64,000 nt of DNA from IMG/VR virus record IMGVR_UViG_2913112809_000002; one strand, given 5' to 3'. Positions 36,001-39,000 of this stretch are shown in pieces. This stretch comes from a virus (Duplodnaviria; Heunggongvirae; Uroviricota; Caudoviricetes). The position numbers are program-made. Numbering within the stretch: position 1 is the first letter of the stretch; the number at the start of each line of letters is the position of its first letter.

Positions 36001-39000
36001 AAGCCACATATACCCACTTCCCTGAATATATCGACTCGCGCCTACGTAATTACCGCTCACGCTATGGCGCTATCAGTAATGACTGAGGAATTTACCATGA
36101 GAGGACTTGCATACAATCCCGGCATTCTTCCGGCAGAAATGATTATTCGCCAACGCGTAAAGCCAATGCCATCAAGAGAGGAATTACTTAAGAGAAATAG
36201 TTTCGGTTCTGTTAACGACAACAGATATCTTGAAATGATTTTGAGGAGTAAGAAGGATTATGTCAAAAAATGACATTTCATATGAATACCTCATTAGCAA
36301 CATTCACTACGATAAAGAAACTGGGGTTTTCAAGAAGATAATTAAATCAAATAATGGGGATATAATTGGTTTCAAACCAACTGGCTGTACGCACTCGATG
36401 GGATACATAAGGATATATATTAATAAAAAATGGTATTTAGCGCACAGACTAGCTTGGTTATATGTTACCGGGAAATGGCCAGTAAATGTAATTGATCACA
36501 TCAACAGAAATAAAGCTGACAACAGGTTTATTAACCTACGAGATGTCTCCAGTAGGGAAAACAATAGCAATACAAGTAGAAATAAAGGAACTGAAATAGG
36601 CACAGAAAGGTGTGCTTATGGATGGAGAGCATACATAGGTGTTAATGGAAAACTACATCACCTTGGCTCATATGCAACATGTGATGGTGCAAAATATGCG
36701 TATGCTCTAGCAAAATATCAAGTAGAAATATATGGTTACCTGCGCCCCACACCAATCGATTGCAGAAAATTAAATTACGGAAACAGGGGGAATCGTAATG
36801 GAAATCCTAAATCAAACCGTCGCAAGTTCCATCAGTGAATCAAAACAAATATCTGAATGCGATGTGGCGGAGTGGGAAGAAATGAAACAAATGTCACTAA
36901 TTGAGATGGATGGATTTCTGAAAGGTAAATGCATCCCAAGTGATTTAAAGGTTAACGAAACAAACGCTGAATATCTGGTGCGTAAATTTGCTGAAGCAGA
37001 GGCCAAGTGCGCGGCGCTGGCAGCGGAGAATGCGAGACTGAAGGTGATGTGTGAGGACCGCCGCAGGTTCATCATGAAAGGGGTGCAACTGGGGTATATC
37101 AAGGTGCCAAAAGCGGAAACAGATCCGGACCTTGAGACAATTCGCATTGCTATATCACCACAAAAGCCCATTCCAGCCACCGATGCTTTCCTGGCTGAAG
37201 TACGGGCGCAGGGCGTGGAGATGCTGGCAAAAAATCATCAGAGTATCGTCAATGCACTTAAGGGAGATTCTTTATTTTCTGATGGTGAATACCGACATGC
37301 AGCTATTGTTTCCGCAGCTGTATATTTCGCCGCCCAGCTTCGCAAAGGAGGCAACCAGTGACTGGACATGCAACAATCCTCGACATGTGCTGTGGCAGTC
37401 GCATGTTCTGGTTCGATAAGAATGACGACCGGGCGATATTTAGCGATATCAGAAAAGAAGAGCACACATTGTGTGATGGACGACGCCTGATTATCAGTCC
37501 TGACCTGATAGCAGATTTTCGAGCATTACCATTTGCAGACGCATCGTTTCCGGTTGTTGTATTCGACCCTCCGCATCTTGAGCGTGTTGGTGATAAAGCC
37601 TGGATGGGAAAGAAATATGGACGGCTGAATAAAGATACCTGGCGTGATGATTTGCGGCAGGGATTTAAAGAAGCCTTTCGTGTGTTGTGGCCACATGGCG
37701 TTATGATTTTTAAATGGAATGAAACACAAATACCTGTTCGCCAGATATTGGCACTGACCGACAGAAAGCCTGTTATCGGTCAACGAACAGGAAAGGGTGA
37801 CAAGACCCACTGGATTATTTTTATGAAGGAGGGCAACCAGTGAGCAAGATTGACTACCAGGAATTGGCTGCTGCTAACGCTTTCTTGGCGGATGTGCGGG
37901 CTGGGGCGTTTAACGACCTTTGCGCGGCGTTTGTCAGGAACGCAAAAATTGCAGGACTGGACGATGGCGATCTCGTTACGGTGAAAGAAGCGACCGATGC
38001 TCTGCTGCATTGTGTGGAACAGCTTCGCGCTCCAGAATAATTAAATTTAGTACTGTAAATAAAATTTAATCCTTAACCGGAGGGATTTCTGCACCCTCAG
38101 AACATCAGGAGGCCGCCCGAAAGGGCGGTAATAAAAATGGCAGAATTAACTAAAGAATGGTTGCAACAAACAATTACTGATATTCAGGTCAATTGAGGTG
38201 AGAAACGCGGATGGAAAATTGTTTAGTGCCGTATCTGGTGCGGTTCGGGGCGTCGTCGTTAACAGTTGTGCCGCATGTCCTGGTGGCTGACAACGTCATC
38301 CCGGCACCGAAACGTCGTACCGGTATTGCAGCGGCACGCCGTGCAGCAAAGAAACGCAGGAGAGCAAAGCGATGAAAAACCGTAAAGCAAAACTGCTTAC
38401 AGCAAAGCCCGGGCAGCTTATCCGCATCTCAAATCGACTTGTTGTTCGTTATGCGCCTTCTGGCCTTGCCAGGTGGTTACCAACGCATTTTTACGGTGTC
38501 AGGCGACGTAGAAGTGCGGCACAAAACCGCTGGAGAAATCACGGTTCTAGGCAAATTAAATGGGAGTGATATGACTACACTATTCAGGAAAAATTATCCG
38601 CGAAAGAGCAGAGCAACAGAATTCCTGTTTCTCATTCTGTTTATCGTGTTGATGATACCGATATCCCCGTTAATTCTGGTATGGGGAATCGGGAAAATAA
38701 TTGAGCCAGTTATTGAATTGTATAACGACGTGGTATGGGCGTCGTTCAACGCACTACACAATAAAATTAATCCGTATAAGGAAAACTGATATGACCACTA
38801 TTACGAGAGAAAGCGCGGAGATTAAATCATTCATCACTGGCTTCCTGAGCGACGCGGCGCACGATAACCAATCGTCAAACAGTCTGCTTGCTAATGTGTT
38901 TCGTATCGCACTGGCATCGCTGGAAGCAGAGCCGGTGGCGTGGAAGGCAACCTTCACGCAAATTGACAATGAATATAATACGTTCACTGCTCTGTATTCT

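What the first reader, a model, noticed from the sequence alone, without database searches (positions are those of the whole stretch)
36260..37843. HNH homing endonuclease and a small methyltransferase-like gene in the early-left operon
A phage-type HNH endonuclease (192 aa) is followed by an unknown 187-aa protein and a 161-aa protein with a SAM-binding-like motif and a DPPH motif resembling motif IV of N6-adenine/N4-cytosine DNA methyltransferases. If the last is a DNA methyltransferase it could be an orphan enzyme providing anti-restriction protection.
Basis: partly seen in the sequence, partly recalled or inferred. Interest (0 to 1): 0.4.

Follow-up and report, generated by a model that had tools for sequence, protein, structure and literature searches.

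The report
Homing endonuclease plus minimal phage methyltransferase
Two independent add-on genes sit in a prophage's early operon: a known mobile HNH nuclease and a very small, widely conserved methyltransferase that probably methylates DNA, although nobody appears to have tested that.

Summary
The three ORFs exist at the stated coordinates in the pL (early-left) operon of a lambdoid prophage, apparently from Escherichia sp. E4742.

The 192-aa protein is an intact HNH_3 homing endonuclease. [quoted passage not shown] The cassette is absent from HK97, is 99.5% identical in HK629, and occurs in 17 of 5,426 complete E. coli genomes.

The 187-aa ORF is an HK97 gp37-like protein of unknown function. 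Its real start is probably at 36882.

The 161-aa protein is a class I SAM methyltransferase with motif I and a near-invariant DPPH motif IV, and no recognition domain. Its 482-bp cassette is bounded by a repeated module junction. It occurs in 943 of 5,426 E. coli genomes. The family is 46-63% identical in phages of Firmicutes, Actinobacteria, Bacteroidetes and other Proteobacteria.

A DNA substrate is not proven. The best evidence for one is that, in a syntenic slot upstream of an orthologous C5 DNA methylase, this catalytic domain replaces a Dam-family DNA adenine methyltransferase domain while keeping the same C-terminal module.

The two cassettes are unlinked and are not a restriction-modification pair. 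The find is ordinary but real. The methyltransferase family is uncharacterised biochemically.

The parts
36097..36273 (+). DUF2737 (HK97 gp38-like) gene. Its last 18 codons (36220-36273) are supplied by the HNH cassette.
   Evidence: Pfam DUF2737 at 9.4e-29 on residues 12-64 of the 36064 ORF. HK629 annotates the homologous start. Junction analysis.
36220..36843 (+). HNH homing-endonuclease cassette: a clean 624-bp insertion relative to HK97.
   Evidence: Window 36072-36219 aligns to HK97 L003 2570-2717 at 98% identity, and window 36844-36960 aligns to 2718-2834 at 95%, with nothing lost from the target. The cassette is 99.5% identical in HK629. It occurs in 17 of 5,426 E. coli genomes; every hit I saw listed lies beside DUF2737. 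GC is 0.36 against 0.42-0.48 for the neighbouring genes other than DUF2737 (0.38), which overlaps the cassette.
36260..36838 (+). HNH_3 endonuclease ORF, 192 aa. The HNH_3 core is residues 59-102 (36434-36565).
36844..36885 (+). Displaced original 3' end of the DUF2737 gene, now downstream of the HNH gene. The cassette's left end (about 36208-36270) is a diverged copy of it.
   Evidence: This stretch aligns to HK97 2718-2759, the end of gp38. A local alignment pairs 36208-36270 with 36832-36890.
36882..37361 (+). HK97 gp37-like / Ea22-family protein of unknown function. The longest ORF starts at 36798 (187 aa); the probable start is 36882 (159 aa, MKQMSLIEMDG).
   Evidence: PHROG 614 at 3.1e-57, with PHROG 492 and 368 matching from residue 32 or 63. 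Alignment to HK97 gp37 and HK629 gp35. No solved relative.
37345..37361 (+). Module junction, copy 1: AAGGAGGCAACCAGTGA. It combines a Shine-Dalgarno sequence with an overlapping GTG start and TGA stop.
   Evidence: Identical junction in HK97 and HK629.
37358..37843 (+). Minimal class I SAM-dependent methyltransferase, 161 aa, 18.8 kDa, pI 9.1. Motif I is residues 7-14 (37376-37399). Motif IV, DPPH, is residues 70-73 (37565-37576). The cassette relative to HK97 is 37362-37843.
37826..37843 (+). Module junction, copy 2: AAGGAGGGCAACCAGTGA, a direct repeat that closes the MTase cassette.
   Evidence: HK97 reads ...AAAGGAGGCAACCAGTGA|GCAAGATTGACTA... without interruption. The window has 482 bp between the two copies of that junction.
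37840..38040 (+). 66-aa ORF (PHROG 27745) that shares the Ea22/gp37-like C-terminal motif. It is the gene that follows gp37 directly in HK97-type phages.

Best explanation
The region holds two unrelated accessory cassettes that were inserted independently into the pL operon of a lambdoid prophage.

(1) HNH cassette. This is a freestanding HNH_3 homing endonuclease. [quoted passage not shown] DUF2737 therefore stays intact while the original target sequence is split and altered. Inferred: the enzyme cuts the uninterrupted HK97-type allele and spreads by recombinational repair during co-infection.

(2) Methyltransferase cassette. This is a minimal (about 150-160 aa) class I SAM-dependent methyltransferase. 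It has a motif I of the type seen in nucleic-acid amino-MTases (LDxCCGS), an invariant acidic residue on strand beta-2, an invariant DPPH motif IV, and no target-recognition domain. It is translationally coupled to the upstream gene through a GTGA overlap behind a strong ribosome-binding site. Inferred: it is expressed early from pL after induction or infection, and it methylates an exocyclic amino group in DNA. Adenine N6 is the most likely target, because the motif begins with Asp and the domain substitutes for a Dam domain elsewhere. Its specificity would be short or relaxed, and its likely effect is to protect replicating phage DNA from host restriction.

What is shown: the gene structure, the cassette boundaries, the fold, the conserved residues, the distribution, and the architectural equivalence to a Dam-type DNA MTase. 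What is inferred: the substrate, the base and position methylated, the specificity, and the anti-restriction role.
For: HNH cassette:
- HNH_3 at 7.8e-15, PHROG 99 and the PADLOC homing-endonuclease model.
- A clean 624-bp presence/absence difference with contiguous flanks in HK97.
- At least 99% identity in HK629 and in 16 of the 17 scattered E. coli genomes that carry it. Every hit I saw listed lies beside DUF2737, and the flanking region matches 3,221 genomes.

Methyltransferase:
- AlphaFold model with pLDDT 84 and pTM 0.83, showing a seven-stranded Rossmann-like sheet.
- An independently modelled viral homolog superposes at TM 0.88.
- DPPH in 337 of 339 family sequences, D30 in 339, D53 in 333, E105 in 338 and R108 in 339.
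- 45 of 58 members hit PF01555 N6_N4_Mtase weakly.
- hhalign against a bona fide PF01555 DNA MTase gives 71% probability, E=3.6e-5, across motifs IV-VI.
- PHROG and PADLOC file the family as a DNA or orphan MTase.

Slot replacement (the key evidence):
- A 248-aa subfamily is 84% identical to the window protein in its catalytic part. It carries a C-terminal module (PHROG 16025).
- The same module (43% identity over 61 aa, E=1e-15) ends the PF05869 Dam-family DNA adenine MTases of Citrobacter phage phiNP and Salmonella phage ST64B.
- In both the Leclercia prophage and phiNP the next gene is an orthologous C5 DNA methylase, 63% identical. The arrangement recurs in all four Klebsiella-type loci inspected.
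- A PF05869 member, PamA (141 aa), makes DNA sensitive to DpnI in vivo (PMC12435837).

Other context:
- In Gordonia phage Nymphadora a C5 DNA MTase lies immediately upstream of the family member.
- The gene always sits in the replication/recombination module and has no conserved partner gene.
- The cassette junction repeat is shown.
Against: - No experiment on this family was found.
- The window protein passes no curated DNA-MTase model. In Pfam it hits only the generic Methyltransf_11 and Methyltransf_25 models, both below threshold. NCBIfam gives nothing useful. NCBI names it only 'class I SAM-dependent methyltransferase'.
- There is no recognition domain, and I know of no characterised DNA MTase with His at the fourth position of motif IV (own knowledge).
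- Motif IV also marks RNA and protein amino-MTases (PMC3299994).
- A phage 'DNA adenine MTase' of another family turned out to methylate 16S rRNA, and only with a partner subunit (PMC10810198).
- Very high conservation across phyla and into an archaeal virus would also fit a universally conserved RNA target.
- The slot-replacement argument rests on a subfamily, not on the 161-aa form itself.
- For the HNH gene, cleavage activity and the target site are untested.
Confidence: 0.6

Rival explanations
1. The 161-aa enzyme is an RNA amino-methyltransferase. It would make m2G, m6A or m4C in rRNA or tRNA, and so tune translation or counter an RNA-targeting defence, rather than methylate DNA.
For: The top Foldseek hit is Trm11, a tRNA m2G10 methyltransferase. 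Also among the better hits are the m4,2C rRNA synthase 8vyd, Bud23, TrmM, TrmN and RsmC. The enzyme has no recognition domain, as is typical of RNA MTases that read a folded substrate. Identity of 46-63% across phyla, and 37% in a halovirus, would fit a universally conserved target. There is a precedent: an Stx-phage 'DNA adenine MTase' proved to be a 16S rRNA methyltransferase (PMC10810198). Some JGI records name family members RlmK/RlmI.
Against: The enzyme replaces a Dam DNA-MTase domain in the same fusion architecture and the same genomic slot. It lies next to C5 DNA methylases in Actinobacteria and Enterobacteria phages. Members consistently show weak similarity to PF01555 DNA methylase, and only 3 of 58 hit UPF0020, an RNA-MTase-type family. 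No RNA-binding domain such as THUMP or PUA is attached, and no partner gene is conserved.
Confidence: 0.2
2. It is a protein methyltransferase (for example glutamine N5) or a small-molecule or nucleotide methyltransferase. One possibility is that it modifies a host factor or a defence signalling molecule.
Against: The same architectural and neighbourhood evidence for DNA applies. The protein is basic, pI 9.1, and has many invariant Arg and Lys residues. The motif I variant LDxCCGS resembles the DPFxGSG of nucleic-acid MTases (sequence, plus own knowledge). No substrate-binding cap domain is present.
Confidence: 0.08
3. The HNH nuclease and the methyltransferase together form a small restriction-modification-like or addiction pair.
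For: They lie within 1.6 kb of each other on the same strand and in the same operon. HNH nucleases do serve as restriction enzymes in some systems (own knowledge).
Against: Their distributions are independent. The HNH cassette is in 17 genomes and the MTase cassette in 943 of the same 5,426, and none has the two contiguous as in the window. HK629 has the HNH gene without the MTase. The Stx2c phage match begins downstream of the HNH cassette and covers the MTase. Each gene has its own insertion junctions. An unrelated gene separates them.
Confidence: 0.02

Closest known systems
Freestanding HNH_3 homing endonucleases of lambdoid phages (HK629 gp36; HK022 'putative endonuclease' NP_597900)
   Same: The cassette is 99.5% identical in DNA and sits at the same insertion site beside DUF2737 in HK629. 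It has an HNH_3 core. Its presence varies among otherwise homologous phages.
   Different: Nothing substantive differs; this is the same element in a different mosaic background. As far as I found, no cleavage activity or target has been shown for any copy.
PF05869 phage Dam-family DNA N6-adenine methyltransferases (PamA of S. aureus mosaic phi11; phiNP 'mtase'; ST64B Sb44)
   Same: They are very small phage orphan MTases without a separate recognition domain (PamA is 141 aa). They have a (D/N)PPx motif IV and lie in the early replication/recombination module. In one lineage they occupy the same slot, carry the same C-terminal module and precede the same C5 methylase. PamA has been shown to make DNA sensitive to DpnI (PMC12435837).
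   Different: The catalytic domains are not detectably homologous (BLASTP E=0.05 confined to motif IV; hhalign probability 0.5%). PF05869 lacks the N-terminal LDxCCGS motif I arrangement and has NPPY or DPPY rather than DPPH.
Beta-class N6_N4 DNA amino-methyltransferases (PF01555; for example SpSL1 cds16, and M.PvuII/M.RsrI types)
   Same: The motif IV to motif VI segment is similar, including ...DPPx...YG...W...F.E.FRV (hhalign 71%, E=3.6e-5). 45 of 58 family members hit PF01555 weakly.
   Different: The motif order is not permuted here: motif I comes before motif IV, whereas beta-class enzymes have IV...TRD...I. There is no recognition domain, the protein is half the size, and all scores are below the Pfam gathering threshold.
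Non-specific prophage DNA adenine MTases Hia5, Hin1523 and Nme1821 (Drozdz et al. 2012, PMC3299994)
   Same: They are prophage-borne orphan amino-MTases proposed to give broad anti-restriction protection. They are a functional model for what a methyltransferase without a recognition domain might do.
   Different: They are 281-aa alpha-class, Dam-like enzymes with a recognisable though divergent recognition region and a DPPY motif. They are not related in sequence to this family.
M.EcoPA8orf6770P, the Stx-prophage MT-A70 methyltransferase (Gong et al. 2023, PMC10810198)
   Same: It is a lambdoid-prophage 'DNA adenine MTase' by annotation, with a DPPx motif IV.
   Different: It belongs to the MT-A70 family with DPPW, needs the partner protein PNB-2, and prefers 16S rRNA. 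The window protein has no MT-A70 signal and no conserved partner gene.

Membership tests
Freestanding HNH homing endonuclease | HNH-type nuclease domain scoring above a curated threshold | tested here: met
   Pfam HNH_3 at 54.7 bits against a cut-off of 24.8, covering 45 of 46 profile positions. PHROG 99 at 3.5e-53.
Freestanding HNH homing endonuclease | Discrete cassette present or absent at one fixed site in otherwise homologous genomes | tested here: met
   A 624-bp insertion with contiguous flanks in HK97. The same site is used in HK629, and every listed hit among the 17 E. coli genomes lies beside DUF2737.
Freestanding HNH homing endonuclease | Cleaves the cassette-free allele and is copied into it by repair | not testable with these tools
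   This needs an in vitro cleavage assay and a co-infection cross.
Class I (Rossmann-like) SAM-dependent methyltransferase | Seven-stranded sheet fold with the motif I glycine loop and an acidic residue at the end of strand beta-2 | tested here: met
Class I (Rossmann-like) SAM-dependent methyltransferase | Pfam gathering score for a methyltransferase family | tested here: inconclusive
   The window protein scores 18.9 bits against 21.2 for Methyltransf_11. Other family members pass, for example P0241 at 34 bits. All 58 members tested hit the family at E up to 1.
DNA N6-adenine / N4-cytosine methyltransferases | Motif IV (D/N/S)-P-P-(Y/F/W) | tested here: inconclusive
   D-P-P is present and near-invariant, but the fourth residue is His in 338 of 339 sequences, one of which reads NPPH. 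I found no paper describing a DPPH motif.
DNA N6-adenine / N4-cytosine methyltransferases | A target-recognition domain | tested here: not met
   The protein is 161 aa and the model is a bare catalytic core. No extra Pfam domain appears in longer homologs. The family is almost entirely 150-250 aa.
DNA N6-adenine / N4-cytosine methyltransferases | Significant match to a curated DNA-MTase family (PF01555, PF02384, PF02086, PF05869 or PF05063) | tested here: not met
   There is no hit for the window protein. The family gives only sub-threshold PF01555 hits, the best at 5.7e-5. hhalign to a PF01555 member gives 71%.
DNA N6-adenine / N4-cytosine methyltransferases | Architectural and genomic interchangeability with a proven DNA-MTase family | tested here: met
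   The DPPH domain and the PF05869 Dam domain alternate in front of the same C-terminal module and the same orthologous C5 methylase.
DNA N6-adenine / N4-cytosine methyltransferases | Transfers methyl from SAM to DNA | not testable with these tools
   No experimental report was found.
Beta-class N6_N4_Mtase (PF01555) | Circularly permuted motif order: IV-VIII, then the recognition domain, then X-I-III | tested here: not met
   Motif I (residues 7-14) comes before motif IV (residues 70-73).
PF05869 phage Dam (PamA type) | Sequence homology of the catalytic domain | tested here: not met
   BLASTP E=0.05 over 27 residues; hhalign probability 0.5%. PamA itself matches PF05869 at 5.6e-30.
MT-A70 rRNA/DNA methyltransferase (M.EcoPA8orf6770P type) | MT-A70 domain with DPPW and an obligate partner subunit encoded upstream | tested here: not met
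   No PF05063 hit in any of 58 members. The upstream gene varies among phages.
Restriction-modification pair (HNH plus MTase) | Nuclease and methyltransferase co-inherited as a unit | tested here: not met
   17 against 943 of 5,426 genomes, and none has the two contiguous.

The most novel reading that the evidence does not exclude
The DPPH family would be the smallest stand-alone nucleic-acid amino-methyltransferase module known, at about 150 aa with no recognition domain. It is conserved from phages of Firmicutes, Actinobacteria, Bacteroidetes and Proteobacteria to a haloarchaeal virus. Its activity would differ from that of an ordinary site-specific orphan methylase in one of two ways. Either it methylates DNA adenines with little or no sequence specificity, perhaps on single-stranded or replicating DNA (it sits beside SSB and annealing proteins), giving broad anti-restriction cover. 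Or it is really an RNA methyltransferase that databases mislabel as a DNA methylase.
Probability: 0.3. Interest if true: 0.6.

Novelty: new member of a known kind. Interest (0 to 1): 0.3.

Why it matters
The HNH element is a textbook mobile nuclease and adds little.

The methyltransferase matters more as a gap in knowledge than as a discovery. One sixth of complete E. coli genomes carry this gene, and so do many temperate phages of major pathogens: pneumococcus, group A Streptococcus, Listeria, Enterococcus, Acinetobacter, Klebsiella and Vibrio. It is labelled 'DNA methyltransferase' by homology alone.

If it is a relaxed-specificity DNA adenine methylase, it would be a widespread anti-restriction determinant. 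It would also be a very compact enzyme for methylation-footprinting methods, which currently use larger enzymes such as Hia5 and M.EcoGII (own knowledge). If it is not a DNA enzyme, a large body of annotation is wrong.

The alternation of DPPH and Dam domains in front of a shared C-terminal module gives a concrete, testable handle on both questions.

Tried and rejected
1. Same as the Stx-prophage rRNA methyltransferase (PMC10810198). Rejected: that enzyme is MT-A70 with DPPW.
2. Homologous to PamA (PMC12435837). Rejected: the family is different. I kept it as a functional precedent.
3. Same as SpSL1 cds16, for which no adenine methylation was found (PMC6755750). Rejected: cds16 is a PF01555 enzyme.
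4. The upstream 187-aa protein is a specificity partner. Rejected: HK97 and HK629 have that gene without the MTase, and the MTase follows unrelated genes elsewhere, namely LygF, SSB, DnaB_2, a C5 MTase and small unknown genes.
5. HNH plus MTase as a restriction-modification pair. Rejected on distribution.
6. Longer homologs (about 270-318 aa) carrying informative extra domains. Nothing was found in Pfam. Only the 248-aa subfamily's C-terminal module proved informative.
7. Sequence search of solved structures with the single protein and with the family profile. This gave only a generic hit to PH0226 at E=0.001. The HNH and gp37-like proteins also gave nothing.
8. The AFDB50 fold library was unavailable. 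The BFVD viral library returned only a family member and generic MTases.
9. Literature. Nine full-text searches found no experimental study of this family. The Murphy et al. 2013 review was not held. The PADLOC paper does not say how its MTase_II and oMTase models were built, so I treat those names as homology labels only.
10. Lysogen methylomes as evidence. Uninformative, because prophage orphan MTases are barely transcribed in lysogens (PMC8597746).
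Full report
**What is there.** They lie in the leftward early operon of a lambdoid prophage. On the same strand upstream are a cI-like repressor (30488-31195) and an N-like antiterminator (32517-32936). After those come a Sak4-like annealing protein, SSB, Abc2 (anti-RecBCD) and a DUF2737 protein. O-like and DnaB-like replication genes diverge on the other strand. The order Sak4-SSB-Abc2-DUF2737-HNH-gp37-like is that of phage HK629. The exact 161-aa sequence is recorded as WP_135522237.1 from Escherichia sp. E4742. That explains why none of 5,426 complete E. coli genomes holds this exact 2.1-kb mosaic.

**The HNH gene.** The 192-aa protein is an intact HNH_3 endonuclease: Pfam E=7.8e-15 with a near full-length domain, PHROG 99 at 3.5e-53, and the PADLOC 'homing endonuclease' model at 1.1e-7. 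Compared with HK97, which lacks the gene, the window carries a clean 624-bp insertion at 36220-36843. Window 36072-36219 aligns to HK97 positions 2570-2717 at 98% identity, and window 36844-36960 aligns to positions 2718-2834 at 95%, so no target base is lost.

The insertion point lies inside the 3' end of the DUF2737 (gp38) gene. The cassette's left end supplies a diverged copy of the displaced 3' end, so DUF2737 remains a complete ORF. The original 3' end now lies downstream of the HNH gene at 36844-36885. The cassette has low GC (0.36). It is 99.5% identical in HK629. It is present in only 17 of 5,426 complete E. coli genomes, at 99% identity or better in 16 of them, and every hit I saw listed lies beside DUF2737. 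The flanking genes, by contrast, match 3,221 genomes. This is the anatomy of a freestanding homing endonuclease. Cleavage itself is untested. HK629 and HK022 already annotate the element.

**The middle ORF.** The 187-aa ORF has no Pfam, NCBIfam or solved-structure relative. It belongs to PHROG 614, unknown function, and is the counterpart of HK97 gp37 and HK629 gp35 in the mosaic ead/Ea22-like group. Its first 28 codons run through the end of the HNH cassette and the displaced DUF2737 fragment. The start that corresponds to HK97 gp37 (MKQMSLIEMDG) is at 36882, which gives 159 aa. It is not a dedicated partner of the methyltransferase. It occurs without the MTase in HK97 and HK629, and the MTase follows unrelated genes elsewhere.

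**The methyltransferase gene as a cassette.** In HK97 and HK629 the gp37-like gene ends in the sequence AAAGGAGGCAACCAGTGA. This combines a Shine-Dalgarno sequence with the next gene's GTG start, which overlaps the TGA stop. In HK97 it continues directly into GCAAGATTGACTA..., the start of a small ORF (MSKIDYQ...). In the window, 482 bp (37362-37843) are interposed exactly at that point. The junction is repeated at the cassette's own end (GAAGGAGGGCAACCAGTGA|GCAAGATTGACTA), followed by the same small ORF at 37840-38040. The MTase is therefore a self-contained module, translationally coupled on both sides and inserted at a standard lambdoid module boundary. It is common: 943 of 5,426 complete E. 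coli genomes carry it, with up to five copies per genome, typically next to ead/Ea22-like genes. Its distribution is independent of the HNH cassette. I therefore reject a restriction-modification-like pairing.

**The methyltransferase as a protein.** Pfam gives only the generic Methyltransf_11 and Methyltransf_25 families, and the window protein falls just below threshold. NCBIfam gives nothing useful. NCBI names it 'class I SAM-dependent methyltransferase'. PHROG 954 ('DNA methyltransferase', 1e-87) and the PADLOC MTase_II and oMTase models (5.4e-74 and 7e-50) cover it end to end, but these are homology labels.

**The family.** It is large, compact and strikingly conserved. There are 256 phage records with a match at E of 1e-5 or better; most of those listed are 46-63% identical, and their hosts include Streptococcus, Vibrio, Acinetobacter, Porphyromonas, Listeria, Gordonia, Lactobacillus, Enterococcus and Staphylococcus. 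A Halorubrum virus homolog is 37% identical. An exhaustive search gives 1,997 clusters at 50% identity with E below 1e-3, of which 232 are below 1e-30. Nearly all members are 150-250 aa, and the longer ones have no extra Pfam domain.

Across 339 sequences, DPPH is present in 337, D30 (end of strand beta-2) in 339, D53 in 333, E105 in 338 and R108 in 339. That is the signature of an active enzyme. The window protein is basic, with pI 9.1. Motif I comes before motif IV, so the enzyme is not a permuted beta-class enzyme. Even so, 45 of 58 members give weak hits to PF01555 N6_N4_Mtase. A profile comparison with a bona fide PF01555 enzyme (SpSL1 cds16) gives 71% probability, E=3.6e-5, from motif IV to motif VI.

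**Is the substrate DNA?** Fold and motifs alone cannot say, because motif IV also marks RNA and protein amino-MTases (PMC3299994). An Stx-prophage 'DNA adenine MTase' of the MT-A70 family was shown to methylate 16S rRNA together with a partner subunit (PMC10810198). That enzyme is unrelated to this one. The gene neighbourhood is always the early replication/recombination module, beside SSB, Bet/RecT/Erf, DnaB_2, RusA or dUTPase, with no conserved partner gene.

The most telling evidence came from a 248-aa subfamily, which is 76-84% identical to the window protein in its catalytic part. Its extra C-terminal residues (about 85-90) form a module, PHROG 16025, that also ends a different phage MTase family, PHROG 111. 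The same module, 43% identical over 61 aa with E=1e-15, terminates the 293-aa 'mtase' of Citrobacter phage phiNP and the 297-aa Sb44 of Salmonella phage ST64B. Both of those have PF05869 Dam-family DNA N6-adenine MTase domains at E around 1e-43.

In the Leclercia prophage the DPPH-plus-module gene is followed, with overlapping stop and start, by a 627-aa C5 DNA methylase. In phiNP the Dam-plus-module gene is followed by the ortholog of that methylase, 63% identical. All four inspected Klebsiella-type loci repeat the arrangement. So the DPPH domain and a Dam DNA-MTase domain are interchangeable in the same fusion and the same genomic slot. A PF05869 member, PamA (141 aa), has been shown to make S. 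aureus DNA sensitive to DpnI (PMC12435837). That also shows that very small enzymes without a separate recognition domain can methylate DNA. In Gordonia phage Nymphadora a C5 DNA methylase lies immediately upstream of the family member.

I take this as moderately strong circumstantial evidence for DNA methylation. Adenine N6 is the likelier target, given the Asp in motif IV and the Dam replacement. It is still an inference, and it rests partly on a subfamily rather than on the 161-aa form.

**Verdict.** I put DNA amino-methylation at about 0.6-0.7, RNA at about 0.2, and protein or small-molecule substrates at about 0.1.

Both genes are already annotated in public records. The HNH element is known. 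The MTase is a member of a recognised but, as far as nine literature searches could show, biochemically uncharacterised family. Interest is modest. The family's ubiquity, its minimal size and the DPPH/Dam domain alternation make it a cheap and worthwhile experimental target.

Noticed in passing
window 39321-48000 and 22853-23008: The early-left operon does not end in xis/int/att. After the DUF551 gene (38701-39321) come an anti-repressor, an HNH-like ORF, a Q-like antiterminator (42455-43150), tRNA-Thr and tRNA-Gly (43475-43628) and lysis-like ORFs, all on the plus strand. A mirror-image tRNA-Thr/tRNA-Asn pair lies at 22853-23008 on the minus strand. This looks like two lambdoid late regions diverging from one immunity region, meaning a rearranged or composite prophage.
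   Followed up: partly
window 39658-40234: An anti-repressor gene appears to be split by a frameshift into two overlapping ORFs, 39658-39888 and 39869-40234. The second matches PHROG anti-repressor families from profile position 66 onward.
   Followed up: no
window 41104-41664: A second, unrelated ORF annotated as an HNH endonuclease (PHROG 96, E=7.2e-90, 186 aa) lies in the nin-like region upstream of the Q-like gene.
   Followed up: no
window 37840-38040; L003 (HK97) about 3284 onward: The 66-aa ORF after the MTase shares the Ea22/gp37-like C-terminal motif (AFLA[DE]VRA) with the 187-aa ORF. HK97 has the same ORF start (GTG AGC AAG ATT GAC TAT = MSKIDY) right after gp37, where its record annotates nothing.
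   Followed up: partly
L024 (ST64B NC_004313.1) 802-1695: RefSeq labels Sb44 'phosphoadenosine phosphosulfate reductase', but it is a PF05869 Dam-family DNA adenine MTase (E=9.2e-44) with a C-terminal extension. The same label on phages 118970_sal3, Eeyore and Flotzy probably repeats the error.
   Followed up: partly
L022 3001-5627; L023 820-3183; L025-L028: A C-terminal module of about 60-85 aa (PHROG 16025) is shared by two unrelated MTase catalytic domains, the DPPH family and the Dam family. In the Leclercia-, Klebsiella- and phiNP-type loci inspected, a large C5 DNA methylase follows it with overlapping stop and start; ST64B Sb44 is followed by RusA instead. The module's function is unknown; it may dock to the C5 enzyme or bind DNA.
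   Followed up: partly
protein P0002 (279 aa; Logan contigs): This homolog reads through the module junction, fusing the MTase to an Ea22-like C-terminal segment (...AFLAELRAQGVEMV...ELRKGGNK). It shows how labile the GTGA junction is.
   Followed up: no
L006 (Listeria phage LP-HM00113468) 2739-3452: A 237-aa pentapeptide-repeat protein (ANLSYADLSC... repeats), possibly a DNA mimic, lies directly upstream of the family member in this Listeria phage.
   Followed up: no
L010 (Staphylococcus phage SpT152 NC_055024.1) 2995-3459: An intact 154-aa family member (GTG start) lies in a gap that the RefSeq record leaves unannotated, between dut and the next gene.
   Followed up: no
L016-L018 (Morganella prophages): Prophages carrying the DPPH MTase also carry a second MTase, of either the PF05869 Dam or the MT-A70 family, about 3 kb downstream in the same early operon. 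Phages evidently stack several MTase types.
   Followed up: no
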